Shown here one piece after another: positions 10,565 to 63,439 of a stretch of 64,000 nucleotides of DNA; position 1 is the first letter of the stretch, and each line of letters opens with the position of its first letter. Both the position numbers and the translations under genes were made by a program. This stretch comes from a virus. Under the pieces are notes generated by a model. It saw only the letters and a program-made list of their open reading frames with translations. It searched no databases and was not told the DNA's origin. The DNA is taken from IMG/VR virus record IMGVR_UViG_3300045988_058019, positions 32,001 through 96,000 of that record; one strand, 5' to 3'.

Positions 10565-11215
10565 TCATTCTGCATAATCATTCTATTTATATTTCCATAT
10601 ATAACCATACGCAGACAACTATCTACCTTTGCAACAATCTCTTATTCCTTCTTTCCTTCTATTTATTGATCTTGCAGCAAAACTTATACTGTAGAAACTC
10701 CTTATATACACACCATCTAACGTATATTGATCAACAGGAATTGTTCTATTTTTATTTATATAGTTGCTATTTTTTATCTTAACCGCTGGAGAAGGATTTT
10801 TAATATTCACCGGCCTTGGTTTACCTATTCTATTTTTAACTATCTTTGCTATAGACTCTTTAGTGTGGTGCCAACCGGCGTTATTTTTTGCACATTTTGC
10901 ATTGTTATATTCAGGATTTAAATCTAAATATTTTTGTTCTATAAACAAAATAGTGTCTTTTACTGGTTCACAATATTCTAATATTGCAAATTGGAAAGAA
11001 GTCTGTCCATATTTATTAAAAGCAGATTGAAGGTGCTTATTACCATGTTTATCATGAAGTAATTTGCGTAAATGATCTTTTAACCTTCTTCTTACACAAA
11101 GTGAACTTCCAACATATGTTTTATTGTTTAGTATATTTTTAATTATATATACTCCAGATGTTGAAGGAATCGTTTGTATATTTTCTCTATTAAAATTTAA
11201 AAATTCGGTACTCAT
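10565..11215 (-). CDS. GIY-YIG homing endonuclease, free-standing, contains 2 in-frame TAG
   Basis: N-terminus has GVYIIKN...KTYVGSS (GIY-YIG). Reading through TAG 10619-10621 restores the C-terminal YGYIWKYK motif shared with the other GIY-YIG copies here. Ends at TGA 10565-10567. Its ATG overlaps the upstream TAA by 1 nt. Confidence 0.8.
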
Positions 11216-14446: not shown

Positions 14447-15367
14447 TTAGCAACCGCATCCGCAACCGTTATTATAACCGTAGCCGTAGCCGTAGCCATA
14501 ATCATTCAAGCCACCCTGACAACCAAAAGGATTGCAAGTTAAGTAAGCAGGAACAGGACACGGACGAATTTGATTAACGATGTTTGCAGTTTGAGCTTGC
14601 TGAGAAGCAGACAATTGTAAAGCTTGTTTATCTTCACGCAAAGCATCGATCTTATTCTGCATTTCTCTCATTTCGAGTTGACAGAACTTATCATTGATAA
14701 TTTGAGTCTGTGCATCTATCTTAGCACCTACAATATTAAACTTAGATGCATTATCAGCCATTAAAGAATTGAATCCACTAGTAATTGCATTTTGCAATAT
14801 ATTAGTCTAGTTGTAGTTAGCCAACTGATTTTCATAACCCATCTTAGTGATGTTGTTATTTACTCCACAGATTGCTTCTCTAACATCGCAGCAGCAGCTA
14901 GCTAACTGAGAAGCTAAGCTTGCATTACCAGAAGTAATAGCGTTAATTACTTCACAGCTAGACAATTTAGTATCGCAAGAGATCTGGCTTACTCCAGAAT
15001 TGATAGTATTAAGAGCTGTCTGAACAGAGTTAATATCACAATTCAAAGTACTAGCTAAGTTATTGATGGCATCTTTGTTACCATTAATAGCCTGCATCAA
15101 CAGATTAGTATTAGCGTCATTGTTCAGTTCAGTAGCAAGAGCACCAGCGTTACGTCCGCCAAAACCATTACCACCGAAACCGCCCCAGCAGAAGAAGATC
15201 AGGATGATCCAAATCCACCACCAGCCGCCATTACCACCCATGCCATTGTTGTTCATCATAGCCATTAAAGCAGCGGGATCCATATTACCTTTATTAGCAT
15301 TCTATATTAAAGCAGCAAGACCAGCGTCAATACCGCGATCCTGCACAATAATTCTATCTTCTAACAT
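14447..15367 (-). CDS. Gly/Trp/Cys-rich membrane protein, about 306 codons, C-terminus (GY)4..(GC)3; function unknown
   Basis: ATG 15365-15367. Track ORFs 14807..15283 and 14447..14797 are in the same frame, joined by TAG 14807-14809, with one more TAG upstream. Contains the hydrophobic segment WWWIWIILIFFCWGGF. Ends at TAA 14447-14449. Confidence 0.65.
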
Positions 15368-17302: not shown

Positions 17303-18325
17303 TTAAGGTTTCTATTTTGAAAATCTTCTTGCATAAACTAATAGCTCTTTATAGCGTAATATTTTCTTTAGTAAGTTAATACCATTACAATGCTTAAGCC
17401 AACCTATGTGACTACACATTTCTTGTTTGTAATCTTCTACTGTAATATGCTTCTTTCTACCTAATCTAGCAGCTTTCCTACACATGCTACGCTTAATATT
17501 CTTCCTTACTAAAGTATAGTTATGTCTTATTACATAACCTACAAATGATATTCCTCTATCTTCTACTTTAAATACCTGATAGTTATCTTTAAAAGATAAT
17601 TTTAAAGTAGCAATATACTACTTCATTTCTTCAAACAATTCTCGTAAATACTCTTTATCCTTATGTAGTATTACTATATCATCTGCATATCTGAAGTAAT
17701 ATTTAACCTATTTATCTTCTTTAAGCCAGTGGTCAAAGTAAGTAAGATACAGATTAGCAAAGAACTAAGATAAGTAATTACCAATAGGTACACCTTCTGC
17801 TGAATCTATTATCTCATCTAATAGCTATAATAACTTCTAATCCTTTATCTTCTTTCTTATTATGCTCTTTAATACTTCATGGTCTATACTAGGATAGAAC
17901 TTTCTGATATCTAACTTAAGACAATAAGTAGTATTATCTACATCTTTTAAAGCTTCTTTAACATTATGTAATGCTTCGTGAATACCTCTGTGTTTAATGC
18001 AACTATAAGTATCTTTAATAAAGATAGATACCCATATAGGTTCCATTATATTCATTACAGCATGATGTACTATTCTATCTGGATAATAAGGTAATCTAAA
18101 TATTAATCTTTCTTTAGGTTCTCTAATTATAAATGTATTATATTCAGAAGTTTTATACGTACCGTTAATTAAATTCTGCTATAGTTTTTTAAGTAATTCT
18201 TCTTTATTCTAGTCAAACTCTTTGATATCTTTTCTACTAGATTTATTTCTTCTAGCTTTCTTATCTGCTAAATATAAATTGTCTAAGCTAACAATCTTAT
18301 CGAATAAATTATTATATCTCTTCAT
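17303..18325 (-). CDS. DGR reverse transcriptase, about 340 codons, 8 in-frame TAG
   Basis: RT motifs DIRKFYPSIDH and YADD are present, plus the DGR-type motif IGNYLS-Q in which the Q is TAG 17765-17767. Full frame scan from ATG 18323-18325 to TAA 17303-17305 found only TAG interruptions. Confidence 0.9.
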
Positions 18326-18461
18326 AAATAATATTTTCTGAAATACCTTCACGCATCTTCACTTTCGTTACCAATGCGTTCAAGAAGCATGTCATATTTT
18401 ACCAAGAGGTAAGGTTCAGCCCTTGATTTTTTGTCAGTTTATAATTTTTTTACGTATTTCA

Positions 18462-18557
18462 GTGTCCTGACATTAGCATTGGAATTGTCTAACTCATTGT
18501 TAGAATTCAAATTGAACAAACCTGCATTAGACTCATTGTCTGAGTTACTGCTGATTT
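18462..18557 (-). repeat. DGR template repeat (TR)
   Basis: 96 nt aligns without gaps to 18700-18795. All 27 differences fall at T on the plus strand (A on the coding strand). TR read in the VR frame is rich in AAY codons (ISSNSDNESNAGLFNLNSNNELDNSNANV). Confidence 0.9.
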
Positions 18558-18586
18558 ACTCACGACTGCAACCTTTTATTGGTTAA

Positions 18587-21148
18587 TTAAAACCAGTTTT
18601 CTTCAGATTCTATAGAATCTATTTGTTCGTAATCTTCATCATTTAATTCCAGTGTAGCTGGAGCAGCTGGCAATGCCGGTTCACCATAGAAGGTAATTCG
18701 AGTCCCGACAAGAGCATGGGAACCGTCCAACCCACCGAGAGAATGCAAAGCGAACAAACCCGCATGAGACCCATGGCCCGAGCCACCGCCGATTAGAAGA
18801 GTTCTAGGTGTAGCTGTAGCACTAGTCCAGTGATAATCACAATAATAAGTTGTAGCACTAGCTCCATTTCCTACTACAGTTGGGAATAGATCTGCCTAAT
18901 TATTATTAACGAGTTTTTTTACATATTGACCAGTAATTGTACTTTCTTTAAAGTCTTGTAACTCATAACCTGCTGCAATTAATTGCTCTGCAGTAGGATT
19001 AGTTCCTCCTTCAAATGTACCAAACTTAGTATAATCTTTGCAGATATATACACTATTGTCAGTACCAGCAACTACTACATCAATTACATTCTTCCATACA
19101 TGACCAAATGGATTCTCAATACCACGGTATCTAGGAACATTAACTACCTTAGTACCAGTAGATGCGCCTTCTGCATTAGTGTTAGTATGAGTATATTCAA
19201 TTATACCAGTACCATTACCTAATGAATTAGTAGTACCACAAGGTACAAAAGAATATGTAGTAGCTCCATTTACAGTTACAGTTCCTGTAGTTACTCCATC
19301 ACCCAAACCACCTTGATGATAGCCTTCTGCAGTTAAGCTAGCATTAAATGCTTTCTGACTATTCAATGTAGCATATTCTACTACGAATAACCAAGTAAGA
19401 TCTCTGTGAGCATCATAAGTATAGATATTCCAGTTGTTAGTTCTATTGTTATTTCTAGCCATAGTCTGGAATTCTGTTCTAGTTTTGCTTACTATAGGAG
19501 CAGCATTACGAACTTGAGTTCTCAATAAATTATTATGACTTGAACTATCTAGATTTACACTTCCCTCATATGCACCAATATATTTCTTTTCTACTTTAGT
19601 ATAACCAGGAAGATTGTATTCACTCATACGAATTTCAACTGTATTATCTGGAGTAGCTATAAGTAATCTATAATGTTCTGGAATCTCTACAAAAGCTTCT
19701 ACACCAACCCCACTACTATCTTGAGATGAGGTAGTACCGTCTTCCCACTTAGTCCAGTCATCTGCTTTTAAGTATTTCTTAGTATTATCTGTATTGCTGA
19801 TAGTACACCCTCTCATCTTACTCTGGATAGGAAGTGTTTTATGCATCTCCATATTACCAGTACGTACACCATCAGAACTAGAACTATTAGCTAAGTCAAA
19901 CTTAACTCCATACCACAGTTCATTTTCATTTCTACTAAGCTTACCAATCTCTTCATCAAGAGTAACAGCTGCACTTATAGCACTAGGACTATCAGCTAAG
20001 TAATTAGTACTTGATAAGTCAGGCATTTCATTAGTTTCAGTTAAACCTACCTTATCATTTACTTTAAGTAAAGTAGTTCTAAGTTCTGTAATATCTTCAT
20101 TTAATGCATCTTCTAAGCTATCGATATTACCTTGTAATTCTGTATCTTTCGCTTTTAATTCGTTTACAGCTGCTTCTCTAGCAGTCTTCTCATCATTAAT
20201 AGCATCGGGAAGAGTTTCATTAATAGCTAACTTTTCAGCACCAGTCATTAAACCAGCAACAGTATTAGTAGCAGGAGTAATAGTAATATCAGCTAAAGTA
20301 GATTCTACATATCTACCATCACTCTTCTCTACTCCAGTAAGACTGATAGTAATGTTATTAACATCTGTTTGATCTAATTGGAATGTACTCAGCAAGTTAT
20401 CAGGCATAGAGTTAACTACATTCTCCATAGCTTTACCTTTACCACCATCATAAGCAGTACCAGTAATATCACCAATAATAATAGCATTAGAATCGATGTG
20501 TACCCATTGTGAACCGGACCATCTAAACTGATAACTTACTTCACCAGGAGTTACATTAACATAGATTTTATCTCTTTCACCTACTATAGGAGTTTCATGT
20601 TCAGCATCTGCATATAACTGTATATTCTAAAGTACTCCAGTAGGAGATACAGTATAAGTAGCATATGCATCCATTACATCATCAACATACGAAGGCAATT
20701 GACTAGCAGGTACTTTACCATTACCATCAAGTTCAGCAAGACCATTAGGTTGACCCTTTAATGCTTTGAAGTCTTGTAAGTCTTCATTTACATCATCAAT
20801 CTTAGTATCTAGTCTATCTACTTGAGCTTTTACAGCAGCATCACCTTTATTAATGGCATCTACTATACTACTGCCTTTAAAATAGTTATTACTACTATTA
20901 TCAGGCAGAGATATAATATCACTATTCTTATCATAGTTCAAACCAACAGATTGTACAATCTCTTTAATGTGAGTCCATTGGTCTACATTAGCATCTCTAT
21001 TCAGTGGTATCCATTTCTTAAGATCAGGACTATATGACTTAATAACATTACCAGTACTGTCTGTTGCTAAGTCAATCCAATAAGAAACCTCTTTAGGATT
21101 TGGAGCATACTTAGATGCTATGAAATTAGGATTTTCTTGTTTAACCAT
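18587..21148 (-). CDS. Tail fibre / receptor-binding protein, DGR target, about 853 codons
   Basis: Track ORFs 20627..21148 and 18896..20428 are in the same frame and both end in TAG. Scan of 20429-20626 was clean. Translation continues through the VR to TAA 18587-18589. The N-terminus shares the motif PNPxEVxYWID with fibre 22961..23866. Confidence 0.8.
18700..18795 (-). repeat. DGR variable repeat (VR) inside the C-terminus of the tail-fibre gene
   Basis: Partner of the TR. Adenine-specific substitutions only. Encodes IGGGSGHGSHAGLFALHSLGGLDGSHALV. Confidence 0.9.
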
Positions 21149-22960: not shown

Positions 22961-23866
22961 TTACTCTTTAAAGAATCCACTAGGAGCACTTACTTTATTA
23001 AATACTACACTATCAGTAGTAGCTAATGATAATTGAGCTCTAGTAACTACATGAGGATTATCTCTTCTAGCTGCATGAGTATCAATAGCATTCTGTGCAT
23101 TAGTAATTAACTGTTTAAGCTCATTAATTTGGGATTGCAAATTATTATCTGCATTAGTTCTATTAGTAATCTCTTGATTAATTAACTCAGTAAGATCAGT
23201 AACTTTACCATCTACATAAGTCTTAAGCTCATTCTTAGCTTTAATAATCTCACTATTTACATAGCTTCTTAAATCACTAATCTATTGGTCAATCTTACTA
23301 TCTAACTCTTGTATATTCTGAGTTAATTCAGTAATCTTCTATTGAATAGAACTTAAATCACTACCTACTATATTAGTTATATCTTGACGTATCTCTTCAA
23401 TATTAGAATTGATATTAGTAATATCTTGATTTATATCATCAATGTTGTTATTAATATTTGTAATATCCTACTTGATATTATTAACATCGCCTTTGATATC
23501 ATTAATCTCATTTCTAATATTGTTAATCTGAGTAGTTAACTCTTCTACTTTCTGATTAATATACTACCACAGTTTATTAACTTCCTCTTTCAGTTCATCT
23601 TTAAATTCAGCTAATTCATTTCTGATTTCAGTTATAGAATCATTAATAAACTGTTCTATCTAATCAAGAGCTCTATTAATATAATCAATGATAGCATCTA
23701 CTTGCTTATCATTCAGATCTAGCGTCTCCCATGTATTAGTATCATTACGATAGTATCTAATACAACCACCATAGTAATTAGATGTAACGTCAATCCAATA
23801 ATCTACTTCTAGAGGATTAGGCTACGTATCTGATGCTCTAAATCTAACTATCTCTCTCTGTAACAT
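22961..23866 (-). CDS. Coiled-coil fibre protein, about 301 codons
   Basis: ATG 23864-23866, frame consistent with TAA 22961-22963. Long heptad-like Asn/Ile/Asp repeats. The N-terminal PNPLEVDYWIDV is paralogous to the DGR target N-terminus. Confidence 0.55.
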
Positions 23867-26711: not shown

Positions 26712-29700
26712 TTACTCATGCTGCTTATTCTTTAAAGTTTCTATTTCAGCTTTAAGCTTTTCAATCTCATCCTTAAGCATCTTAACTCCTTCAATAGCTA
26801 ATACACCTAACATCTCATACTCTACCTTCTTAACCTTAACATACTCTTCACCATCTTTAGTGAATGATTCAAACTGTTCGGGATTACTTACTTCAGACTT
26901 AAGAGTATCACTTTCAGTTACTATGTCCTCAAAACCTAATTCCTCTAAGTTCTATGCTATAGTACCTATTTGCTTCTAATCATTCATTATAAATGATACA
27001 GTAGGTATAGAACATATCTGATCTAGAGTGTAGTCTAAAGGTTTAATATCTGATTTTAAACGAGCATCAGATTCTTTGAAGAAACCACCTGCTGCAGATA
27101 CTTTACCAGAAGATGCTACATTACCACCTATGTAAAGTTTATTATCTCCAGCAATAGATCCAACATTAACCCCAACAATTACTGATCCACCGTTAGCACA
27201 CATAAGTATATTCTTAGTACTAGCACCAGTAGAAGAATACCTATGGTTTAAATATAGATGGTTAGTATATGAATTTATTTCATTTGTGTGTTCTATATTT
27301 ATACCTCCAGCTGCGCTAATAATATCATCTCCAGCATATATGGACTATTTAGGAGTTATAGTTACCATTCTAGCTACTCCAGAAGTGGGCATAGCTGCAT
27401 TACTTATAGATTCGACCATGTTACGATAGTCACTGCTATTGCTATAATAAGCATGTACTACAAAAGATTGGAATTGTCGTATTTGTTTAAACCACAAATG
27501 AACCTTACCATCATGGATAAATACTTTTATATCACCAAATCCAGCTCCGTTATTAACCCCAGAATACTATATTATTGAGTTTCCTGTATTATAATTATAG
27601 AACTATATTACTGTATCAAACGGAGGTGTAGTATAATCGGAATTACCGAATATTCTTACAGTAATCATTGCATCAACACTAGATGCATTTCTTAATTTTA
27701 CCAAACATCCTTTATCATAGTTATATACCATTTTTGGTGAATAACGCTAATCTAACTCGTTAGCATAATTACCTTTATGAAGTAATTTATAATGAGTACC
27801 TCCATAATAGAAAGTTGCTCCTTCATCTAAACTATCTACTCTACCTAATGATATACACGGATGAGTTGATAGTTTATCATTATACAGATATGCACCTAAT
27901 GAGTTAGTATATCCTACTTCTGCAGTTTGTGTTCCACTATTAATAAACTGTATATAACTAGAAACATCAGTTCCATGTAAAGTTAAAGGAGTTACTGATG
28001 AAGTTTGATTTATTGTTAATGCTCCCGTCATAGTATCCCCAGCTTTCTTTACAAAAGCAGATGGACTGATACCACCAACTGTGTCAGCATTGCCAGCATT
28101 AGCTGGCTTACCAACGCTTACAGTCTATGCACTACCTCCAGATGGAGTTACTGTAAAATTACCAGCAGAACCATTAGCAAATGTATATGTAGTATTAGTA
28201 TTCTACGAAGGTATACCTAGCGCGGTTATATCAGCTTTAGTTACAGCAGTAACACTAGCTACATGACTAGTAGAATCAGTAGAGAATTTATATAATCCAG
28301 ATGCTTTACTAGGTGCAGAACCAGCAGGATGTACGTAGTTATTATATGTAGCTCCTTTAGTTAAAGTGAGAGTATCACCACTAATAGATGCAGTAGTAAC
28401 AGCATTACCAGAACCAGCTACAGTTACTTTACCAACTTTCTTAGCTAATTCTGTATTCATAGTAGACTACAGATTGTTAATATTAGTCTGTAACTGAGCA
28501 TCACCATCCTTTCTAGCTTGTATCTCTACATTCAAATCGTTAGTAATCTCGGATGAACTACTCTCGATAAGCTCTTCTAATCTATCTACTTCAGTAGTTA
28601 CTCTATTATCTAGATTAGTAATTCTATTAGGTATATTGACGTCTAAGTTCTATTTATCAGTAGCAGTCATTACACCAGCTGCAGATTGTGTAGCAGCAGG
28701 TATAGTCTATGACTTAGTAATAGGATTAGCATATGAATTACTAGCTGCAGATAAATCAGATTGCTTATAGTTAATAGTTACACTAGTTGCATTTCTAGAC
28801 GTTGCATCTATACCAGTAACTAGGTTATTAGGTAGTGAATCAAGCTTATCACCAGGATTCTGTATACTACCAAATTCATTATATAAGTCATCTAATCTGC
28901 CTTTATCTATTGCAGACATAGCACCTGCATTAGTAGTTGTAGCTGATGGTATATCTATATTATCATCTTGTAATGGACCGTAATTTAAACCATCTTTAGC
29001 TGCATACTTATAGTTAATCTTAACTAATTCACCAGTACTAGTAGTAGGAGTAAGATATGAAGTAAGTTTAGTAGGCATACTATTTAAAGCATCTCTATTA
29101 GCTTTACCTTTATCTCCAGGATACGCTGTACTAGGAGTTTCACCTAATGCTAAACTCTAACTAATCTCTAAGTATTGAGTACCAGTCCATCTATATGTTA
29201 AGTTAGTATCCTTAGATACATATATCTTACCAGTTTCACCAATCTGAGGGAATTGAGCTTTAGTAGAGAACTCTAATACATCATCTACATAAGATGGTAA
29301 TTGAGCTGCAGGAACTTTACCAGTTGAGTCTAATTCAGCTAAACCACTAGGTTGACCTTTAGTACTAATGAATGCATTTAAACTATTAGTAATAGTAGTG
29401 TCGCCTGCTTTCCTATCTTCAATTTCTTTCTGTAAAGCAGCTTCTAGCTCATCAGTAACTCCATCAAACTTGTTCTCAATTCTATCTATCTCAGCTTCTC
29501 TATCTGCAATCTCCTTATCAATCTTATCATCAAGATCATCTATTCTACTATTTAGATTGGAGTCTGCTTCCTTTAGGTCTTCAATCTATCCAGGAATAGT
29601 AGTATTAAGTTCTACATAGTCTTCCTTACTCATAAGACCATCCATAGAAGCAGTAGCATTAGCTATACGTATATCCATATAGATATTGTTACCGCTCTTA

Positions 29701-30302
29701 ATAGTGTTCCATGATACACAAGGAGTACTATTCTGTCTAAAGGTAATGCCATTAGTTACTAAATCATAAGTAGATGTATTAGTACCATCTTTAAACTTAA
29801 TGTTAGTTAATGCTAAATTACCTATATATACATACTGACCATTATCTGTAAGTACTTTAGTACCATCTCCAGTAGTCTTAATAACTGTAGTAGTATATTG
29901 TTCTTTACTATAGTTTAATGAACCATCTACAGTAATAGTATCAAATACTACTTGAGATATATTATCTGTACCTTCTTCTTTAATAAAATCAGGAGATTCA
30001 ATGTATATAGTACCACCAACTATAGCTACTTCAGTTGCTAAGTCTAATCCATTTCTCTTAGGGTTAATAGTATAGATAAGCTTGCCTTCTTCTATAGCTT
30101 GTTTTAACGCGTCATAATCTTCTTGACTTACTTTACCATCAACGATAGTAGGATCAAAGATATACATAGTCATATCTTTAAACTCTATCATTCGGATCTT
30201 ACCATTTCTTTCACCATCTTGGAATGGAATCATTTCCTATCCTGTGACAGCAGTACGTTCTGAAGCTTGACTAATCTTTAAACCTTTAATTCTTGCTATC
30301 AT
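26712..30302 (-). CDS. Long tail fibre/spike, about 1196 codons, with C-terminal intramolecular-chaperone (peptidase S74-like) domain
   Basis: Track ORFs 29586..30233, 28707..29078, 28203..28460, 27747..28031 and 26976..27203 share one frame. Scan of 27204-27746 found 3 TAG and 0 TAA/TGA. The C-terminus SDARLKSDIKPL...GTIAQNLEELGF...YEMLGVLAIEGVKMLKDEIEKLK fits the S74 pattern. Ends at TAA 26712-26714. Confidence 0.7.
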
Positions 30303-48923: not shown

Positions 48924-49904
48924 TTAAGCAGTCTGCTTGCAGTCAGACTGCATTAATTCTTTCTTCCAGATATAACCTTTACACGTCTTAGCTCTACCAT
49001 TGCAAGCTCTCTGTATAGATTTATAGTCAGTGTTTACTGCCTTAGCCGCATTGTGCATTCCCATATAAGTAGCTACTAATATATCATCTAAAGTATACTG
49101 GTAAACTAAATACTTAGTAGATGCCACTCTTAGTTTTTCTTTTTGCTCTTCAGACATCTTTTTACCTTTATTCAATCCAACCATACCTTTAACCCAGTTA
49201 GAATTGCCAAAATATACTTTATTACGTTTATATCTCTTAACCAAGGTAGATTTATTCTTTTCATACTCTTCTAACCATAATGGAATGTTAGACTTTTTAT
49301 CTTCTAATTCTTCTTTAGTATATGCTGCAATAAAATTATTACAAAACGGGTGGATGTAATTATTGTTGCATAGTCTACCTATATTAGAGCGACTCAGGCC
49401 TGTAATAGTTGCTGCATCCTTGATAGTCCAAGCATATATATAATATCTATCAATAAAATTATATAAATGTACACGCTTACCGAATGTACCGTTTGCTACT
49501 AATTTTTTAGTATTTTCAGATACTTTCTTCTTTTGCTCTTCTGTCATCTTGAGTCCAAGAACTCCAAAATCACCACCTTTAGTACAATTGTATCCCTCTG
49601 TATAAGCGTTGTATTTTTCAATATACTCTATTTCTAATTTGTCTAATGTTTGAATTAGTTCTAAATTAGAAATATTTGGATCTGGAATAAATGATTCCAG
49701 TATATCTACAGTAAAGTTATGAAAACCGTACTTATTTATTGCTCTATAAATTGGTAAATCTAATTTTCCATTCTTAGCATTTCGCATATGGTCTTTTAGT
49801 CTTGATCTTAGTTTAACACTTTGACCAATATAACATTTACCATTCACATTATTTTTGATTATATATATACCAGCTAACTTTGGATCTATATCTCTGTATG
49901 TCAT
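48924..49904 (-). CDS. GIY-YIG homing endonuclease, 326 aa, no TAG
   Basis: N-terminus GIYIIKNNVNGKCYIGQS...YNCTKGG. C-terminus CKGYIWKKE. TAA stop. Sits 26 nt downstream of the suppressor tRNA. Confidence 0.85.
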   Translation of the reverse strand: MTYRDIDPKLAGIYIIKNNVNGKCYIGQSVKLRSRLKDHMRNAKNGKLDLPIYRAINKYGFHNFTVDILESFIPDPNISNLELIQTLDKLEIEYIEKYNAYTEGYNCTKGGDFGVLGLKMTEEQKKKVSENTKKLVANGTFGKRVHLYNFIDRYYIYAWTIKDAATITGLSRSNIGRLCNNNYIHPFCNNFIAAYTKEELEDKKSNIPLWLEEYEKNKSTLVKRYKRNKVYFGNSNWVKGMVGLNKGKKMSEEQKEKLRVASTKYLVYQYTLDDILVATYMGMHNAAKAVNTDYKSIQRACNGRAKTCKGYIWKKELMQSDCKQTA

Positions 49905-49930
49905 ATCTGCAAGTTTTATATGAATATTGG

Positions 49931-50005
49931 TTGGGGCGGCAGGGCTCGAACCCGCACATCACAGAGGTTTAGAATCTCCGGTACTACCAATTATACCACG
50001 CCCCA
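49931..50005 (-). tRNA. Amber-suppressor tRNA, anticodon CUA, Gln-like acceptor stem
   Basis: Cloverleaf drawn by hand. Acceptor stem TGGGGCG/CGCCCCA (U1-A72, G2-C71, G3-C70). D-stem GTAT/GTAC. Anticodon loop TTCTAAA (CTA at 49970-49972). T-arm GCGGG-TTCGAGC-CCTGC. There is an A31-C39 mismatch and a 7-nt variable loop. Confidence 0.8.
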
Positions 50006-50050
50006 ATATCACGTGGATATTCTTACCCTCCACGTAAGGGTTCTGATGGT

Positions 50051-50188
50051 TTAGAACCAAGATTTAATTCTTTGCCATAATGACTTCTTTACAGGTTTGT
50101 TCAAATATTCAGAAGCTTCTTCAATCTGTCTAAATACTTCGTCTGTATCCTTAGTCAAGTCTATAGTAATCGTAAATTTCTTATTCAT
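50051..50188 (-). CDS. Small hypothetical ORF, 45 aa
   Basis: ATG 50186-50188, TAA 50051-50053. Below the track cutoff and found by eye. Confidence 0.3.
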   Translation of the reverse strand: MNKKFTITIDLTKDTDEVFRQIEEASEYLNKPVKKSLWQRIKSWF

Positions 50189-50245
50189 AATATTTTCATT
50201 TATACACTATAACGTGTTGTTAGTATTTGGTTATATTTTAATGTA

Positions 50246-50776
50246 TTATCTTGCCAACTCGTATGGATTTACTTTAGCGTCACCTTTAACTTTGCCTATA
50301 GCTACTTCTTCCGCTTTAACCATAGTCTCTAGTGAATCTATACTTTTGAGTACTCCACCTACAGAAGTCATACCGGCTAATAAATCCTTAATCTTCTTTT
50401 CGTCTAAAGTATCGTCTAATGATTCTTTATAGTATTTACTCACACTATCTAGTTTTAGACGCATATTATTTAGCATTTGTAGAGCTCTAGTGTTAAGTAG
50501 GTTCTTATATTCCTCTTCACAAATTAGTTCTTCAGAAGTTAATTTATAATTTTCATCATTAAATATTTCCTTCTTTAATTTAAGCTCTCTACTATCTTCA
50601 TCCATACTTTGTACATAAGGACTATCCCATTTATTCATAAGTACAATGTAACTTATTACTTTAGAAGAATGCTCCTTATCTGGCTTATCAGTATCCCACA
50701 CCTTTTTAAAGCATGGGATACCTATAGCATCAGGATGTATTACTACCTTACCACCAACAATATCAAATAATTTCAT
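50246..50776 (-). CDS. Hypothetical protein, 176 aa
   Basis: Intact track ORF, TAA stop. Confidence 0.65.
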   Translation of the reverse strand: MKLFDIVGGKVVIHPDAIGIPCFKKVWDTDKPDKEHSSKVISYIVLMNKWDSPYVQSMDEDSRELKLKKEIFNDENYKLTSEELICEEEYKNLLNTRALQMLNNMRLKLDSVSKYYKESLDDTLDEKKIKDLLAGMTSVGGVLKSIDSLETMVKAEEVAIGKVKGDAKVNPYELAR

Positions 50777-51077
50777 TTGTAAGAACTTGTTTATTATCTT
50801 CTTTATTCCATCTTATAAGATCGTCTTTAGCAAAAGCGTCAGAACAGACTATTGGTTTTAATGTCCACTTACTACTTATAGTATCATATTTACTTAATAT
50901 GAGTACAATATCTCCTAGTTTATAGTCTATTACTTCCTCTTCTGTTATTATTTGACCATCCTACTATGCTATATATATAGTTCTACATTCAAAGTTGTCA
51001 GATATATTTTTAATGCTATTAGTATCTACTTTATATAAAATAGCATTACCGTATTGATCTATCAATAATTTATCCAT
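50763..51077 (-). CDS. Hypothetical protein, about 104 codons, 2 adjacent in-frame TAG
   Basis: ATG 51075-51077, TGA 50763-50765, frame consistent. Missed by the track because of TAG TAG. Confidence 0.45.
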
Positions 51078-51078
51078 A

Positions 51079-51453
51079 TTAGCAATCACACTGTACAGGT
51101 TCACAAGCACAATCACATTCAATATCACAAGAAGTAGATTTCTTTTTTTCTTCTTGTCCCTTTTCTAGCAATCTGTTATAGTGATTCTTTACTTCATCAT
51201 TTTCAATAAAGATGTACTCTGCATCACTTTCTTTATCTATAGGATACAATTTTATTACCATAGTGCCTTTAGTAACACTCCTTCTCTCTTTAGAACCATC
51301 TTTCTTTGTATAGATCCACTCTCCATCTTCAGGAATATACCACGTATAGTCTACATAAAAATGATCTAGTAAGCTAACATTTTCTACTTCTTTATCGTAA
51401 CTAATAACGGTACCTCTATCTACTGAACAAATATACTTAATCATAATAATCAA
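51079..51453 (-). CDS. Hypothetical protein, 124 aa, Cys-rich C-terminus
   Basis: Intact track ORF. Confidence 0.6.
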   Translation of the reverse strand: MIIMIKYICSVDRGTVISYDKEVENVSLLDHFYVDYTWYIPEDGEWIYTKKDGSKERRSVTKGTMVIKLYPIDKESDAEYIFIENDEVKNHYNRLLEKGQEEKKKSTSCDIECDCACEPVQCDC

Positions 51454-51504
51454 TCAATTAAATAACCTAAATAATATTCTTTCTATAATCTCGCTATAAT
51501 TTCC

Positions 51505-51885
51505 TTAGCACGCCCCATCGGTACATTCGGATTCACATAATCTGATTTTATTTGATAATTCTGTATTATCTGCTAAAACTTCTCTATCTCCTCCTGTATG
51601 CTCTACTTTTTTATATTCTTCATACTTCTTAAATAGCATGTCACACATTGCATTTACCTGATCGGCTCTACTAGGTTCTGCATTACTCTTCCCATTATCT
51701 ACTATAGTAGTAGTAATACTGTCAATTACATCATTTGTGAAATCTTCATAAGTAATTACGCCTTCATTAATTAATTCATCTACTTTGTTATATAGGCGCT
51801 TCATTTCCTTACTAAATGAACCATAGAGTGGTTTATTGTTTTCCACTTCTAATTTCCACATCATTTTACTTTCTTCAATTGTCAT
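51505..51885 (-). CDS. Hypothetical protein, 126 aa
   Basis: Intact track ORF. Confidence 0.6.
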   Translation of the reverse strand: MTIEESKMMWKLEVENNKPLYGSFSKEMKRLYNKVDELINEGVITYEDFTNDVIDSITTTIVDNGKSNAEPSRADQVNAMCDMLFKKYEEYKKVEHTGGDREVLADNTELSNKIRLCESECTDGAC

Positions 51886-52312
51886 ATTCTTTGTTTTTTA
51901 ACTCATTACAGATAGTATTACTTATATTTCCTGCAGCCCATCCTACTAAGTAGGCATACGCTTCATTGCCATCTTTAAAGTCTTGTGTATATAAGCCTAA
52001 TTGTTCACAAAAGTAATCCGCAACGTGTACTGCCTCATGAGGAATCATGTCTGGAGTAATATCTTCTGCATTAGCAACAGCTATCACTATTACTCCGTAT
52101 TTATTATCACTCTTACGTATTACTTTACAAGTAACCATTCCACCATCATGTTTATCTATTTCTTGTAGTAATCTATTATATTCGCTTCCATCGTTGTTAC
52201 CATATACATCAAGAAATATAAAATATTTATCTAAATCCTCAATATTAGTACTTACAAATAATAGTCTAGGGTATATCTTAGGACTATAAACATCATACGG
52301 TTTCTTTTTCAT
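51875..52312 (-). CDS. Hypothetical protein, 145 aa, HEAVH motif
   Basis: Intact track ORF that overlaps its neighbours as in an operon. Confidence 0.6.
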   Translation of the reverse strand: MKKKPYDVYSPKIYPRLLFVSTNIEDLDKYFIFLDVYGNNDGSEYNRLLQEIDKHDGGMVTCKVIRKSDNKYGVIVIAVANAEDITPDMIPHEAVHVADYFCEQLGLYTQDFKDGNEAYAYLVGWAAGNISNTICNELKNKEYDN

Positions 52313-52487
52313 ATCTTTTCTTTAATTTGAATTTACCTAAGTAAGAGAATCTAACTGGTTTAGGATCTAAGTTAGAGATGATACTATTAGTAAATCTGAA
52401 CGGGCTGTTACATATTACTTCTATAATAGGATATGGTATGTTATACTTATTACTTAGCTCAGTATATATACTCACTTGATTCCTCAT
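52293..52487 (-). CDS. Hypothetical protein, 64 aa
   Basis: Intact track ORF. Confidence 0.5.
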   Translation of the reverse strand: MRNQVSIYTELSNKYNIPYPIIEVICNSPFRFTNSIISNLDPKPVRFSYLGKFKLKKRYEKETV

Positions 52488-52836
52488 TTAAATCTATCTT
52501 TTTGTAATATTTACATTCTTCTAAAGTAGAAGAATCATTAAATGTATTAGGCCTTACTATATTGATTATAGCTTTGATATCTTCCCAATTTCTATCATTT
52601 ATATCATAAACAGATTGTAGTTTGTGTATCTCCTGTTTACTGTACTTGCGTATAGGAGTATATGCAATAAAATTATACTCATCTATCGTAAGTAGCTCTA
52701 TATTAGTAGGAATGATCTCAAACTTATTATAAGGCAAATCCTTTTTCTTTAATTTATTCCATAATCTGGTAAATATGTTATATTCTTTCCAACATAATAT
52801 AGTGCCAGGTCTTACTATTGTTGTTTTAATCTTCAT
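52459..52836 (-). CDS. Hypothetical protein, 125 aa
   Basis: Intact track ORF. Confidence 0.6.
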   Translation of the reverse strand: MKIKTTIVRPGTILCWKEYNIFTRLWNKLKKKDLPYNKFEIIPTNIELLTIDEYNFIAYTPIRKYSKQEIHKLQSVYDINDRNWEDIKAIINIVRPNTFNDSSTLEECKYYKKIDLNEESSEYIY

Positions 52837-53203
52837 CTTTATTTACTCTTAATATTATAGTAATCTGTACTCTATCGCCGATTATTTCAGGTATAAGCGC
52901 CTTATTCACTACAACTTCATCTTCAATCTTACCTTTAACTAATATGCCTTGCTTCTTAAATCTAGCTATATATCTACTAAGATTATCAGGAGTAATACCT
53001 AATACTTTCCTAATATATTTTCTGTTTTCAGTAGATATTACATTTTTACTTATGTTAGGTAGCTTAGGAGTGTTAACATCTATTGCTATGAATGTAGCTA
53101 GTAGCTCTAGCTCCCTATCAGTAAGATCAAGTATACCATTAAGGCTCTTTAAGAATTCTGTGTTTAAATCGGCTTTGCTTACGCTTTTTACCAATTTATT
53201 CAT
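52826..53203 (-). CDS. Winged-helix DNA-binding regulator candidate, 125 aa
   Basis: The segment LGITPDNLSRYIARFKKQGILV looks like a wHTH recognition unit. Confidence 0.45.
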   Translation of the reverse strand: MNKLVKSVSKADLNTEFLKSLNGILDLTDRELELLATFIAIDVNTPKLPNISKNVISTENRKYIRKVLGITPDNLSRYIARFKKQGILVKGKIEDEVVVNKALIPEIIGDRVQITIILRVNKDED

Positions 53204-53573
53204 TTGTTAACGTATCCTTAATTTTATTTAAAACCTTATTTAAGTTATAATACACTGTCTCAGCTTCTAACTTAACACAAGGTTGTATTTCACCTTTATT
53301 TGCTCTTTCATTGGTCTCTTTTAGGTTACTTTCATATTTCTCAAGTAGGTCATCAATGAGCTCTAAAGTAGCATCTACATTATACTTACTTTCATCATCA
53401 ATACTTAAAAGATAACCTTCTTCACATAAGTAATCTGCAGTATCATAATCTAAAGACATCATTCTAGTGTAATTATCTTCAGCAATGTTAAATGATACTA
53501 AACCTGTTTCATCTTCTGCTAATACATCACCTTTCTTAGCAGAACCAAATTCCTTAATTACTTTGTAGCTCAT
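53196..53573 (-). CDS. Hypothetical protein, 125 aa
   Basis: Intact track ORF. Confidence 0.6.
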   Translation of the reverse strand: MSYKVIKEFGSAKKGDVLAEDETGLVSFNIAEDNYTRMMSLDYDTADYLCEEGYLLSIDDESKYNVDATLELIDDLLEKYESNLKETNERANKGEIQPCVKLEAETVYYNLNKVLNKIKDTLTNE

Positions 53574-53619
53574 AATATTTATTTTAAATGTTTATGTATC
53601 TATAAACGGCAGATTAAAT

Positions 53620-53653
53620 AAATGTTAAAATCTGTTAACATTTATTAACATTT
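53620..53653. promoter_or_regulatory. Operator-like palindrome AAATGTTAA-N6-TTAACATTT plus a third half-site
   Basis: Perfect 9-bp inverted repeat at 53620-53628 and 53635-53643, with another TTAACATTT at 53645-53653. Lies 47-80 nt upstream of the ATG at 53573. TTAACATTTATTAACATT recurs at 54940-54957. Confidence 0.45.
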
Positions 53654-53660
53654 ATTATCT

Positions 53661-53693
53661 ATATAATAAAAAACCCTGACTAACGCCAGGGTT
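53661..53693 (-). terminator. Rho-independent terminator after the GroES-like gene
   Basis: Stem AACCCTG/CAGGGTT, followed on the minus strand by TTTTTTATTATAT. Confidence 0.7.
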
Positions 53694-53716
53694 CATTCTA
53701 ACAATGAGTTATAATT

Positions 53717-54076
53717 TTAAATCATATTTGATACAGCAATTATATCATATGGTTTGACTAATTGACTATCCTTAAACAAATCAAAGTCCTTAGCAAACTT
53801 TTTATTATAAACAATAGTATCTCCTACTCTATATTCACATTCTGTTAAGCATGTGGGAATCTTCAATACTACACCTGTTGAATATTCAGATTCTACCTCC
53901 TTAGTTTCAGTTTGTGTATCATACTTATTGAAACCATCTTCATCAACTTCACCTGTAGGAATCTGCTCTGTTATCTCTTTAGTAACCATAACTGGTTCCA
54001 AAGGCTTAACTAACACATCCTTCAACATAGTATACTTAATTCCATTTACTACTGTTTCTAGTACTTTATCTTCCAT
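53717..54076 (-). CDS. GroES/Cpn10-like co-chaperonin candidate, 119 aa
   Basis: Pattern VLVKP...GVVLKIP...VGDTIVY...YDIIAV parallels GroES, with an insertion in the mobile-loop region. Confidence 0.4.
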   Translation of the reverse strand: MEDKVLETVVNGIKYTMLKDVLVKPLEPVMVTKEITEQIPTGEVDEDGFNKYDTQTETKEVESEYSTGVVLKIPTCLTECEYRVGDTIVYNKKFAKDFDLFKDSQLVKPYDIIAVSNMI

Positions 54077-54107
54077 AATATTCTATATTTAATACTCAAA
54101 TAACGTA

Positions 54108-54317
54108 TTATTTCTTATTTTGTTTCTCTAATATTAATATATTTCCGCCATTAGAACAACAATAACGTCTAGCCAAAGTAGGACAGTTTCTATTTAAGAA
54201 ATAACAGCCATCGCAACTACCTATTGGATTAGACTCTATTATAAACTATTTGTTGTCTATTGTTACTGGTATTCTATCTCTTACTATCTTTGCTAATTCC
54301 TAATCATTTAATGTCAT
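54108..54317 (-). CDS. Small Cys-rich protein, about 69 codons, 2 in-frame TAG
   Basis: ATG 54315-54317, TAA 54108-54110, frame consistent. The CDGC...CP...CC pattern resembles 54618..54806. Confidence 0.4.
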
Positions 54318-54618: not shown

Positions 54619-54806
54619 TATTTATCTCTTTTAAGTATAAATCCTTGAGTACATAATGAAGTAATCCTAGAAGGGCAATAATAATTATATAAATCACATC
54701 CTTGACACATACCCTTTACTTCATTCTCTACTAGAGTATAAGGCTTATTACCAAAATATACTTTCTTACCTAAGTAAGCTACTTCTCTAACTTGTTTGTG
54801 TTTCAT
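54618..54806 (-). CDS. Small Cys-rich protein, 62 aa
   Basis: Intact track ORF with CQGC...CP...C. Confidence 0.5.
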   Translation of the reverse strand: MKHKQVREVAYLGKKVYFGNKPYTLVENEVKGMCQGCDLYNYYCPSRITSLCTQGFILKRDK

Positions 54807-54965
54807 AGTAATTATATTTGTGATTATCTAAAGTAGGAGTAATTAATATTATATCACTTTACTTAACTAGACACTGTTATCACTTTACCCCTCTTACTCC
54901 CCATATAACGTCTAATATACTGTCTTAGTTACTATTTCTTTAACATTTATTAACATTATTTATAG

Positions 54966-59026: not shown

Positions 59027-59035
59027 CCACTAATT

Positions 59036-63070: not shown

Positions 63071-63439
63071 ATGAAAAGAGAAGAAATTAAATCTTACAAA
63101 GATGCTTGCAAAGTAATAGGTAGGAAACCTAGAACTTATAAAGATAAGCATTTGAATCTGTATGAACAGCTTAGTACAATTATAGCTGCTCTAAATTTCA
63201 TTAGTAATGGTAATAAACCTTGGACACCTAAGTTCGATTATTATTACATCTATTCTTGGTTGTATAGAGAAGATGAATATAATAAAACTGCGGGTTTGTT
63301 CCATTTGAATTCTTACCGTGGGTTGGGCTCTTCCTCTGCTGGTGTCGGGGCTTCTCTGAAGATAAAAGAAAGAGAAGATGGAAATTACATAATGGAAAAC
63401 TTTGAAGAACTACTCCAAGATTGGTTTTGGGGAGATTAA
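63071..63439 (+). CDS. Hypothetical protein, 122 aa
   Basis: Intact track ORF, TAA stop. Confidence 0.6.
   Translation: MKREEIKSYKDACKVIGRKPRTYKDKHLNLYEQLSTIIAALNFISNGNKPWTPKFDYYYIYSWLYREDEYNKTAGLFHLNSYRGLGSSSAGVGASLKIKEREDGNYIMENFEELLQDWFWGD

What the first reader, a model, noticed from the sequence alone, without database searches (positions are those of the whole stretch)
17303..21148. Complete diversity-generating retroelement targeting a tail-fibre C-terminus
TR (18462-18557) and VR (18700-18795) align over 96 nt without gaps. They have 27 mismatches, and every mismatch is a template adenine on the coding strand; 25 of the 33 adenines in the 93-nt core (18464-18556) are changed. TR in the VR frame is full of AAY codons.

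The VR lies about 35-70 codons before the stop of an 853-codon fibre gene. That gene's N-terminus matches the virion-attachment motif of a neighbouring fibre.

The RT has YADD and the DGR-type SQ motif. The element order is target-VR, TR, a 136-nt spacer, then RT. I could not find an Avd-like accessory ORF. This predicts programmed hypervariation of receptor binding in this phage.
Basis: seen in the sequence. Interest (0 to 1): 0.8.

Follow-up and report, generated by a model that had tools for sequence, protein, structure and literature searches.

The report
Two-target mutagenic retroelement in crAss-like phage

Summary
TR (18462-18557) and VR (18700-18795) align without gaps. All 27 mismatches sit on template adenines (P about 4e-17).

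The window is a TAG-to-Gln recoded crAss-like phage, 95.6% identical here to cr53_1 (Suoliviridae, Blohavirus). In 33 related genomes the TR is nearly invariant. There are 32 distinct VRs, with 758/1120 adenine sites changed against 6/1952 other sites. The element is therefore active.

The RT is DGR-type: its best PDB hit, 8ub7 (which I take to be the Bordetella-phage DGR RT), scores 1e-45. No Avd was found.

Three additions:
- **Second target.** A shorter VR (63289-63352, + strand) lies in a 122-aa gene of the TAG-free early/replication block. It is hypervariable exactly at the TR's AAY codons. A different genus (cr60_1) has the same layout, matched to its own diverged TR. The protein family (PHROG 11581) is also a DGR target in two other phage contigs.
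- **RNA structure.** A covarying long-range duplex brackets the TR and is followed by a short hairpin and an A-run. This resembles the Bordetella "cPRT Stop" and overlaps Rfam RT-17.
- **Unproven fold.** The C-type-lectin fold could not be verified.

The kind is known, and DGRs in crAss-like phages are published.

The parts
17303..18325 (-). DGR reverse transcriptase, 340 aa, with 8 in-frame TAG read as Gln
   Evidence: Pfam RVT_1 8e-20. The best PDB hit is 8ub7, 328 aa, at 1e-45, against 4.5e-17 for the next hit, a retron-type RT, and 1e-16 for group II intron RTs. I identify 8ub7 as the Bordetella phage bRT from my own knowledge. YADD and the IGxxxSQ motif are present, and the Q is encoded by TAG. 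PHROG 1423 at 4e-123. No NCBIfam RT model reaches its cut-off.
18334..18416 (-). Structured part of the TR-RT spacer, resembling Rfam RT-17 RNA (RF03020)
   Evidence: Full-length model match at 33.7 bits, below the gathering score of 40.4, E 7e-5. The same position scores 44.5 bits in cr6_1 (above gathering), 37.2 in cr60_1 and 31.4 in L074.
18397..18421 (-). 3' arm of the TR-bracketing duplex (GGCUGAACCUU, 18411-18421), then hairpin ACC-UCUU-GGU and AAAA (18397-18410)
   Evidence: Coordinates. Covariation over 19 distinct variants: 97.6% of cells paired, 8 of 13 pairs with changes on both sides, score 0.616 against 0.217 shuffled (0/500) and at most 0.155 when slid.
18462..18557 (-). Template repeat (TR), non-coding, 35 adenines
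   Evidence: Identical in nearly all of about 30 related genomes.
18564..18575 (-). 5' arm of the TR-bracketing duplex (AAGGUU-G-CAGUC), between the fibre stop codon and the TR
   Evidence: AGG[TC]TG occurs exactly once in 62 of the 65 loci that have it.
18587..21148 (-). Target 1: modular tail-fibre gene, 853 aa, 2 in-frame TAG
   Evidence: PHROG 5302 'tail protein' 8e-82. N-terminus resembles the neighbouring 22961-23866 product. The middle is 33% identical to the 1196-aa fibre (E 2e-27). The cr53_1 orthologue is annotated 'tail protein; similar to sulfatase, major tropism determinant'.
18700..18795 (-). VR1, codons 785-817 of target 1
   Evidence: 27/27 mismatches to the TR at adenines. 32 distinct VR1 in 33 genomes.
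63071..63439 (+). Target 2 (T2): 122-aa protein of unknown function, no TAG codons, in the early/replication-strand block
   Evidence: Orthologue of cr53_1 gp19, 'hypothetical protein'. PHROG 11581, unknown function. No Pfam or NCBIfam family. 725 clusters at 90% identity in public data.
63289..63352 (+). VR2, matching TR positions 32-95
   Evidence: 17/17 mismatches at TR adenines, P 4e-12. 27 distinct VR2 among 30 genomes. Protein entropy exceeds 3 bits only at residues 78, 80, 82, 83, 87, 89 and 91, which are the TR AAY codons.
49928..50005 (-). Suppressor tRNA (anticodon CTA) needed to translate the RT and the fibre
   Evidence: ARAGORN. Summed length of ORFs of at least 100 aa doubles when TAG is read through. 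A tRNA-Gln is annotated at what looks like the matching place in cr53_1; I did not align the two.

Best explanation
This is an active, Avd-less diversity-generating retroelement (DGR) of a TAG-to-Gln recoded crAss-like phage (Suoliviridae, close to Blohavirus cr53_1). It serves two targets.

Proposed mechanism:
1. An RNA is made that spans from just after the fibre stop codon, through the TR and the 136-nt spacer.
2. In that RNA a duplex forms between a segment 6 nt upstream of the TR and spacer nucleotides 41-51. It brackets the TR and is followed by a 3-bp hairpin and an A-run. This is the layout described for the Bordetella phage 'cPRT Stop'.
3. The RT can only be translated once the phage's amber-suppressor tRNA is available. 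It copies the TR into cDNA and inserts random bases opposite template adenines.
4. The cDNA replaces the homologous variable repeats. VR1 recodes about 12 AAY-type codons at the tip of an 853-aa tail fibre, which is presumably receptor binding. VR2 takes only the 3' two-thirds of the TR and recodes 7-8 positions of a 122-aa protein encoded 44.5 kb away on the other strand, in the TAG-free early/replication block.

Shown here: the repeats, adenine specificity, TR invariance with VR hypervariation across genomes, the RT type, RNA covariation, and independent diversification of the two VRs.

Inferred: cDNA priming and homing, the expression timing, the receptor-binding role of target 1, and any role of target 2.
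For: - **Adenine specificity:** 27/27 mismatches (VR1) and 17/17 (VR2) fall at TR adenines.
- **Activity, VR1:** 32 distinct sequences in 33 genomes, with 758/1120 A sites substituted against 6/1952 non-A sites. Mean pairwise difference is 18% in VR1 and 5% in its flanks.
- **Closest genome, cr53_1:** identical TR, and 14 VR differences, all at A sites.
- **Activity, VR2:** a protein-level test free of the pattern bias used 117 distinct sequences. Entropy exceeds 3 bits only at AAY-templated residues.
- **Independence:** VR1 and VR2 of one genome are no more alike at A sites than those of different genomes (0.434 against 0.427).
- **Repeat count:** the window and the whole cr53_1 genome each hold exactly TR, VR1 and VR2.
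- **Conservation:** cr60_1, a different genus, has a remote VR2 in a T2 homologue that matches its own diverged TR.
- **T2 family as a target elsewhere:** T2-family proteins carry VRs next to a TR in two other phage contigs. One of these has an RT 55% identical to this one.
- **RT type:** the best PDB hit, 8ub7, is at 1e-45.
- **RNA:** covariation supports the bracketing duplex, and the spacer gives RT-17 matches.
- **Recoding:** suppressor tRNA and TAG read-through. TAG density is 12.0 per 1000 codons in the late block and 0 per 1060 in the block holding T2.
Against: - No Avd homologue was found among 52 small proteins of the window, yet the only biochemically studied DGR RT needs Avd.
- The window covers only 64 of about 101 kb. 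The rest was checked only through the cr53_1 annotation.
- No clear IMH of the Bordetella type and no significant hairpin follow either VR.
- The C-type-lectin fold was not confirmed for either target. The AlphaFold models were poor (pLDDT 41.5 and 56.7). Profile searches of the PDB found nothing.
- The nucleotide-level counts of zero non-A changes in VR2 are partly forced, because the search pattern required exact non-A matches.
- All evidence for activity comes from comparing assembled genomes, not from reads within one sample.
Confidence: 0.93

Rival explanations
1. A fossil cassette. The DGR worked in the past, and the VR differences seen today are inherited old alleles shuffled by recombination, while the RT is now a TAG-riddled pseudogene.
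For: Under the standard code the RT has 8 in-frame TAG. [quoted passage not shown]
Against: TAG is read as Gln in this phage. A CTA-anticodon tRNA is present, summed length of ORFs of at least 100 aa doubles with read-through, and one TAG encodes the conserved Q of the SQ motif. The RT is full length and 89-96% identical in about 20 related contigs. Genomes that differ at only 2 sites in the surrounding 1.2 kb differ at 14 A-templated VR sites. Nearly every genome has its own VR1 and VR2.
Confidence: 0.03
2. The RT belongs to a group II intron or a retron, as the GenBank note 'Intron reverse transcriptase' implies, and the TR/VR resemblance is an ordinary duplication.
For: The cr53_1, cr60_1 and cr6_1 records annotate it this way. 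NCBIfam group_II_RT_mat gives 6.8e-38.
Against: That NCBIfam score of 130.7 is far below its cut-off of 300. The best PDB hit, 8ub7, which I take to be the DGR RT, is about 28 orders of magnitude better than intron or retron RTs. There is no maturase or endonuclease domain in 340 aa. The mismatch pattern is adenine-only (P 4e-17). The spacer RNA has the DGR-type bracketing duplex.
Confidence: 0.01
3. VR2 is not a direct retrohoming target. It gains diversity second-hand, by gene conversion from VR1 or by ordinary positive selection on a duplicated fibre fragment.
For: VR2 is shorter (TR positions 32-95), is 44.5 kb away on the other strand, and lacks an obvious downstream hairpin.
Against: VR1 and VR2 of one genome are no more similar at A sites than random pairs. 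Changes are confined to TR-adenine codons across 117 proteins. The scaffolds of the two targets share only the 31-column VR stretch (hhalign probability 79%). In cr60_1, VR2 tracks the non-A changes of that phage's own TR. T2-family proteins are the adjacent targets of DGRs in two other phage contigs.
Confidence: 0.03

Closest known systems
Bordetella phage BPP-1 DGR (Mtd, Avd, TR, bRT)
   Same: It also shows adenine-specific TR-to-VR transfer into the C-terminus of a tail-fibre protein. The best PDB match of this RT is what I take to be its RT. Its spacer is of similar length (136 nt here; about 140 nt in BPP-1, from my own knowledge). In both, a duplex between sequence upstream of the TR and the spacer is followed by a short stem-loop and adenosines, the 'cPRT Stop' of bioRxiv 10.1101/2023.10.23.563531.
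   Different: Here there is no Avd and no Avd-binding stem-loop, since the first 40 spacer nt are A-rich with no stable structure in the MFE fold. The TR follows the target directly. No cruciform follows the VR. There are two targets. The RT and fibre need amber suppression. The lectin fold is unverified.
DGR of crAssphage LMMB and other Alpha genus I crAss-like phages (PMC7290462)
   Same: The order is TG-VR-TR-RT, there is no avd, the target is a tail fibre, and the host is a crAss-like gut phage.
   Different: It belongs to a different family (Intestiviridae, not Suoliviridae). The passages of that paper that I read describe one target gene and mention no remote second target. LMMB is reported to lack tRNA genes, whereas this phage is TAG-recoded.
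DGRs of Zeta and Epsilon crAss-like phages (PMC12386605, PMC11054128)
   Same: Amber suppression inside RT genes is noted for Zeta. Most cassettes lack Avd. The targets are tail fibres. The Epsilon paper states that cassettes had been found in Alpha, Delta (Suoliviridae) and Zeta groups.
   Different: The passages I read give no description of the Suoliviridae element, of a small early-block target, or of the spacer RNA. The source they cite (PMC7886860) does not mention DGRs in its main text.
Multi-target and remote-target DGRs (Wu et al. PMC5758913; Treponema PMC4891356; Roux et al. PMC8144416; Legionella from my own knowledge)
   Same: One TR serves several VRs, some of them far from the RT.
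   Different: Those I know of are mostly cellular surface or signalling proteins. Here the remote target is a 122-aa phage protein with no evident signal peptide or membrane helix on reading the sequence, in the early/replication block. Roux et al. state that their metagenome survey could not detect remote targets.
Rfam RT-17 RNA (RF03020) and RT-10 (the BPP-1 spacer), Weinberg et al. 2017 (PMC5737381)
   Same: [quoted passage not shown] The full-length model matches, with conserved GACCUU-hairpin-AAAA and UGGUA...GAA elements.
   Different: The window copy scores below the gathering threshold (33.7 against 40.4). The Rfam model does not include the upstream arm of the bracketing duplex found here.

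Membership tests
Diversity-generating retroelement | Reverse transcriptase of the DGR clade (YxDD; IGxxxSQ in motif 4) | tested here: met
   YADD and IGNYLSQFFAN are present. The best PDB hit, 8ub7, is at 1e-45; the next hit, a retron-type RT, is at 4.5e-17 and group II intron RTs are at 1e-16.
Diversity-generating retroelement | TR/VR pair whose differences are confined to template adenines | tested here: met
   VR1 27/27 and VR2 17/17, with P 4e-17 and 4e-12.
Diversity-generating retroelement | VR near the 3' end of a protein-coding target, with AAY-rich TR codons | tested here: met
   VR1 covers codons 785-817 of 853. VR2 covers codons 73-94 of 122. The TR has 10 AAY codons.
Diversity-generating retroelement | Invariant TR and hypervariable VR among closely related genomes | tested here: met
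Diversity-generating retroelement | IMH/IMH* pair at the 3' ends of VR and TR, and a downstream hairpin or cruciform | tested here: inconclusive
   All 59 VRs read GTCGGGAC where the TR reads GTCAGGAC, and the sequences diverge after position 95. No 14-bp all-GC element was seen on reading the sequence. The DNA folds after VR1 and VR2 are no better than shuffles (z -0.08 and -0.66).
Diversity-generating retroelement | Accessory variability determinant (Avd); not universal, since about a quarter of DGRs lack it (PMC7290462) | tested here: not met
   No match to any Avd-type Pfam family, including PF05635, the Avd-like family by my recollection, among 52 small proteins of the window or the cassette neighbours. 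There is no room for a gene between VR and TR. Nothing in the cr53_1 annotation suggests one.
Diversity-generating retroelement | Variable residues displayed on a C-type-lectin fold | tested here: inconclusive
   No Pfam family for either target. PDB profile searches were empty. AlphaFold pLDDT was 41.5 and 56.7. Foldseek gave nothing with E <= 0.001. The only support is the depositors' note 'similar to sulfatase, major tropism determinant' and the AGLFxLxS...VGxR motif, which I recall from known lectin-fold VRs.
Diversity-generating retroelement | Spacer RNA that pairs with sequence upstream of the TR (cPRT Stop layout) | tested here: met
   19 distinct variants, 97.6% of cells paired, 8 pairs with changes on both sides, score 0.616 against 0.217 shuffled. 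The hairpin helix was required by my search pattern, but the long-range helix was not.
Diversity-generating retroelement | TR-derived, adenine-mutagenised cDNA and its homing into the VR | not testable with these tools
   This needs cDNA sequencing or infection experiments.
Rfam RT-17 RNA (RF03020) | Score at or above the curated gathering threshold (40.4 bits) | tested here: not met
   The window scores 33.7 bits. The homologous position scores 44.5 in cr6_1, 37.2 in cr60_1 and 31.4 in L074.
Group II intron RT/maturase | NCBIfam TIGR04416 at or above its cut-off (300 bits) | tested here: not met
   130.7 bits.
Crassvirales, Suoliviridae (Blohavirus) | Close nucleotide identity and synteny with a classified genome | tested here: met
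   95.6% identity over 3846 nt to NC_055889.1, with the same gene order. The CrAss_Ring_2 Pfam family is present in the window.

The most novel reading that the evidence does not exclude
The 122-aa second target represents an unrecognised class of DGR variable proteins (PHROG 11581). These are small proteins with no evident signal peptide (on reading the N-terminus), encoded among early/replication genes rather than structural genes, and repeatedly paired with this RT clade in gut phages. They occur singly, in tandem, or remote from the RT. If so, the phage would use programmed hypervariation inside the infected cell, for example to bind a variable host factor or defence protein, and not only for adsorption.
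Probability: 0.3. Interest if true: 0.75.

Novelty: new member of a known kind. Interest (0 to 1): 0.5.

Why it matters
The cassette itself is an ordinary, though very clean, example. It shows that one of the commonest human-gut phage lineages keeps re-randomising its fibre tip.

Three things go beyond that:
- **Undercounted targets.** The remote second target shows that cassette-centred pipelines undercount DGR targets. It also points to an uncharacterised protein family that DGRs diversify in several phages.
- **A general RNA scaffold.** An Avd-less RT clade keeps the TR-bracketing duplex, hairpin and adenosines seen in the Bordetella structure. This suggests the RNA scaffold is the general part of the mechanism and Avd is dispensable. 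That is directly testable.
- **A role for an orphan motif.** The Rfam motif RT-17 gains a likely role as a DGR spacer element.

Tried and rejected
- **Fibre C-terminal model.** AlphaFold2 on 409 aa, with a 93%-identical relative as first row and 21 sequences, gave pLDDT 41.5.
- **T2 model.** AlphaFold2 gave pLDDT 56.7. Foldseek of that model against the PDB gave no hit with E <= 0.001.
- **PDB sequence and profile searches.** Searches with the fibre C-terminus, with its TR-encoded 'germline' version and with the T2 family found only chance antibody or enzyme hits.
- **Family libraries.** Pfam and NCBIfam gave nothing for either target.
- **Avd.** Not found in the concatenated small proteins.
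- **Hairpin or cruciform after VR1 or VR2.** Not better than shuffles.
- **Scaffold homology between the two targets.** Only the VR stretch aligns.
- **Further VRs.** None in the window or in the full cr53_1 genome.
- **Yutin et al. 2021 (PMC7886860).** Cited elsewhere as the source for Suoliviridae DGRs, but its main text has no mention of DGR, retroelement or reverse transcriptase.
- **PDB code 8ub7.** A full-text search for the code found no paper, so the identity of that entry as the Bordetella-phage RT rests on my own knowledge.
Full report
**1. What the window is**

Under the standard bacterial code the region breaks into short ORFs. Reading TAG as a sense codon doubles the summed length of ORFs of at least 100 aa, from 9,832 to 19,740 codons. 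A tRNA with anticodon CTA lies at 49928-50005 (-).

One of the eight TAG codons in the RT gene falls where DGR RTs carry the conserved Gln of the SQ motif: IGNYLS-TAG-FFANLY. So TAG is read as Gln.

The stretch 17303-21148 is 95.6% identical to NC_055889.1, 'CrAssphage cr53_1' (Crassvirales; Suoliviridae; Loutivirinae; Blohavirus), with the same gene order. That record annotates the two genes as 'Reverse transcriptase; Intron reverse transcriptase' and 'tail protein; similar to sulfatase, major tropism determinant'. It does not label a DGR.

**2. The observation**

On the coding (minus) strand, TR 18462-18557 and VR 18700-18795 align over 96 nt without gaps. All 27 mismatches are at TR adenines (16 A>G, 7 A>C, 4 A>T), and 8 adenines are unchanged. 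The chance that 27 mismatches all land on the 35 A positions is 4e-17.

- 25 of 33 adenines changed in the core
- an AAY-rich TR frame
- the VR at codons 785-817 of 853
- a 136-nt spacer
- YADD and SQ motifs in the RT

The first 49 residues of the fibre are 41% identical to the N-terminus of the coiled-coil protein at 22961-23866 (E 1e-9). Residues 107-306 are 33% identical to the 1196-aa fibre at 26712-30302 (E 2e-27). The protein matches PHROG 5302 'tail protein' at 8e-82.

**3. Is it active?**

Against cr53_1, the interval 17700-18900 has 16 differences. Fourteen are inside the VR, all at TR adenines, and the TR is identical.

A scan of IMG/VR used the TR with N at its adenines and returned 35 stretches. 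Allowing up to 6 non-A mismatches, I recovered 33 VR1 copies, of which 32 are distinct. There were 758 substitutions at 1120 adenine-templated sites against 6 at 1952 other sites. The TR was identical, or differed by one base, everywhere. Mean pairwise difference is 18% in the VR and 5% in its flanks.

Some adenines are always G in the VR (positions 6 and 90, with 9, 17, 35 and 64 nearly so). This fits selection for Gly codons. For position 90 it may instead be a fixed TR/VR difference at the 3' boundary.

**4. The RT**

Pfam RVT_1 matches at 8e-20. The best solved-structure match is 8ub7, a 328-aa 'Reverse transcriptase', at 1e-45 over residues 2-308. The next hit, a retron-type RT, is at 4.5e-17, and group II intron RTs follow at 1e-16. 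I take 8ub7 to be the Bordetella phage bRT from my own knowledge; a full-text search for the code found nothing.

No NCBIfam RT model reaches its cut-off. The group II model scores 130.7 against a cut-off of 300.

**5. No Avd**

The genes next to the cassette are a holin, a DUF6549-like protein and an unassigned 362-aa protein. There is no room for a gene between VR and TR.

Fifty-two small proteins of the window, concatenated and scanned against Pfam, gave no Avd-type match. This agrees with published Avd-less crAss-like cassettes of order TG-VR-TR-RT (PMC7290462).

**6. A second target**

While listing small proteins I saw 'TAGLFHLNSYRGLGSSSAGVGASL' in a 122-aa ORF at 63071-63439 (+). At the DNA level, 63289-63352 aligns without gaps to TR positions 32-95, with 17 mismatches, all at TR adenines (P 4e-12). 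A sliding search finds exactly three copies of TR-like sequence in the window and in the whole cr53_1 genome: TR, VR1 and VR2.

A second IMG/VR scan with the shared part of the pattern returned VR2 from about 30 genomes, 27 of them distinct. 399 of 567 adenine sites were substituted. The zero count at non-A sites there is partly forced by the exact-match pattern.

I therefore used an independent protein search:
- The 122-aa protein has 725 clusters at 90% identity.
- In 117 distinct sequences, entropy exceeds 3 bits only at residues 78, 80, 82, 83, 87, 89 and 91. These are templated by AAY codons.
- Entropy is 1.4 bits at residue 86 (GAC).
- No other column exceeds 1.4 bits.

VR1 and VR2 of the same genome are no more alike at adenine sites than those of different genomes (0.434 against 0.427). 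The two are therefore diversified independently.

cr60_1 (genus Buchavirus) has a TR that differs at many non-A positions. It also carries a remote VR, in a 135-aa homologue (gp86), which matches positions 31-98 of its own TR. The two-target layout is thus conserved, and the TR and VR2 co-evolve.

**7. What is target 2?**

- It has no Pfam or NCBIfam family.
- It belongs to PHROG 11581, function unknown.
- An exhaustive search found 51 representatives at 50% identity, mostly 120-150 aa.
- A profile search found 6973 proteins with E <= 0.001.
- Reading the sequence, I see no evident signal peptide or membrane helix.
- Its neighbours, 62746-63051 and 63465-63929, each begin with a hydrophobic stretch that looks like a membrane helix. 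That is my reading of the sequences, not a tool result.
- It lies in the block transcribed with the replication genes in cr53_1.
- That + strand block has 0 TAG in 1060 codons, against 12.0 per 1000 in the structural block. This suggests translation before, or independent of, suppression. That is an inference.

In two other phage contigs, tandem-domain members of the family carry two VRs each, and one more sits in the next gene of L075. All match an adjacent TR with adenine-only mismatches. In L074 the RT follows directly and is 55% identical to this one. Its neighbours there are replication-type genes. In L075 the neighbouring gene has a weak Acb2/Tad1-hairpin hit.

The scaffolds of the two targets share only the VR stretch (hhalign, 31 columns, probability 79%). 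The function remains unknown. I consider an intracellular ligand binder and a small virion adhesin both open.

**8. The DGR RNA**

Rfam gives a full-length but sub-threshold match to RT-17 RNA at 18334-18416 (-), scoring 33.7 bits against a gathering score of 40.4. At the same position the score is 44.5 bits in cr6_1 and 37.2 in cr60_1, and 31.4 in L074. Weinberg et al. found that RT-10 is the BPP-1 spacer and speculated that other RT motifs serve DGRs (PMC5737381).

Comparing four elements showed a conserved AGGUUG a few nt upstream of the TR. It pairs with the conserved (G/A)ACCUU of the spacer, and the adjoining 5 bp differ completely between elements yet stay complementary.

I then fetched 80 loci of this RT clade, with 57-96% identity. 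A strict pattern found the element in 60 of 84 elements (these 80 loci plus the four compared), giving 19 distinct variants. On these:
- 97.6% of cells pair.
- 8 of 13 pairs show changes on both sides.
- The covariation score is 0.616, against 0.217 for shuffles (0 of 500 reach it) and at most 0.155 when partners are slid.

The 3-bp hairpin was required by my pattern, so its pairing rate is not evidence, although its pair types vary. The long-range helix was not required. AGG[TC]TG occurs once in 62 of the 65 loci that have it, so choosing among candidates cannot explain the result.

In the window the arms are 18564-18575 and 18411-18421, followed by ACC-UCUU-GGU and AAAA at 18397-18410. This is the layout reported for the Bordetella 'cPRT Stop': an upstream:spacer duplex with one bulge, a short stem-loop, then A-minor adenosines (bioRxiv 10.1101/2023.10.23.563531).

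The first 40 nt of the spacer are A-rich, and the MFE fold shows no stable structure there. That fits the absence of an Avd-binding stem-loop. By analogy, spacer A38/A39-G40, just 5' of the duplex arm, is a candidate priming site. This is inference only.

**9. Homing signals**

Both VRs end in GTCGGGAC where the TR has GTCAGGAC, and homology stops after position 95. VR2 begins at a run free of adenines (GGTTTGTTC). That would suit the short 5' homology that cDNA integration requires in Bordetella phage, which I state from established knowledge and did not test. No significant hairpin follows either VR.

**10. Fold**

The lectin-fold prediction could not be tested to a conclusion.

**11. Comparison and verdict**

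DGRs are well known. They are published for crAss-like Alpha genus I (PMC7290462), Epsilon (PMC11054128) and Zeta (PMC12386605, which also notes amber suppression in RT genes). The Epsilon paper states that cassettes were found in Delta/Suoliviridae, although the source it cites does not mention them in its main text.

Multi-target DGRs are common in gut phages (bioRxiv 10.64898/2026.03.05.709809). Large surveys could not see remote targets (PMC8144416).

I found no description of the remote 122-aa target, of PHROG 11581 as a DGR target family, or of RT-17 as a TR-bracketing element. My literature access is limited to the held library.

The finding is therefore a correct, very well supported new member of a known kind, with a moderately interesting extension.

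Noticed in passing
window 49928-50005 (-); whole window: The phage reads TAG as Gln. It has a CTA-anticodon tRNA. TAG density is 12.0 per 1000 codons in the structural block (2594-48456), 4.7 in 48924-57094, and 0 in the + strand block 57702-63929. This fits code-switch control of late genes, and it places the DGR RT (8 TAG) among the suppression-dependent genes.
   Followed up: partly
window 63347 (TR position 93): This window's VR2 has G at TR position 93. That adenine is unchanged in all 32 VR1 and in the other 26 VR2 (GTCGGGGC instead of GTCGGGAC). It may be a rare mutagenesis event close to the 3' boundary.
   Followed up: no
P0001 and other 618-aa relatives of the 18587-21148 product: Many related phages encode a fibre 235 aa shorter, lacking the stretch from about residue 110 to 345 (the GLAELD repeat region and part of the coiled coil). 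The N-terminus and the VR domain are kept, which indicates modular shaft length variation.
   Followed up: no
L074 4703-5626 and L075 10001-11154: In two other phage contigs, T2-family domains occur in tandem within one protein, and each domain has its own VR served by a single TR. L075 has a third VR in the following 124-aa gene. No RT was evident within the 10 kb fetched on either side: no called gene has an RVT_1 hit, and the 365-aa ORF I translated lacks a YxDD motif.
   Followed up: partly
L075 9295-9870: The gene just upstream of the T2-family DGR target has a weak Acb2/Tad1-hairpin Pfam hit, an anti-defence sponge family. This hints that the family sits among counter-defence genes.
   Followed up: no
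window 10565-11215 (-), 54966-55685 (-), 56459-57094 (-): Two GIY-YIG (one with NUMOD1) and one HNH homing-endonuclease-like genes are present. The first lies inside the structural block. The 54966-55685 gene carries 5 TAG although its neighbours have none.
   Followed up: no
window 59936-60021 (+) and 62634-62717 (+): There are two tRNA-Leu(TAA) genes in the early + strand block. The second lies one gene (62746-63051) upstream of the second DGR target.
   Followed up: no
window 14447-15367 (-): This 306-aa protein has a Gly/Trp-rich hydrophobic N-terminal stretch, many Cys, and a GYGYGYGY...CGCGC tail. It is annotated 'spike protein/glycoprotein' in cr53_1. The composition is unusual.
   Followed up: no
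L003/L076 (cr60_1) and L073 (cr6_1): The GenBank/RefSeq records of cr53_1, cr60_1 and cr6_1 call the DGR RT 'Intron reverse transcriptase'. None of the regions I fetched carries a TR, VR or DGR feature. In cr53_1 and cr60_1 the remote target is listed as 'hypothetical protein'.
   Followed up: yes
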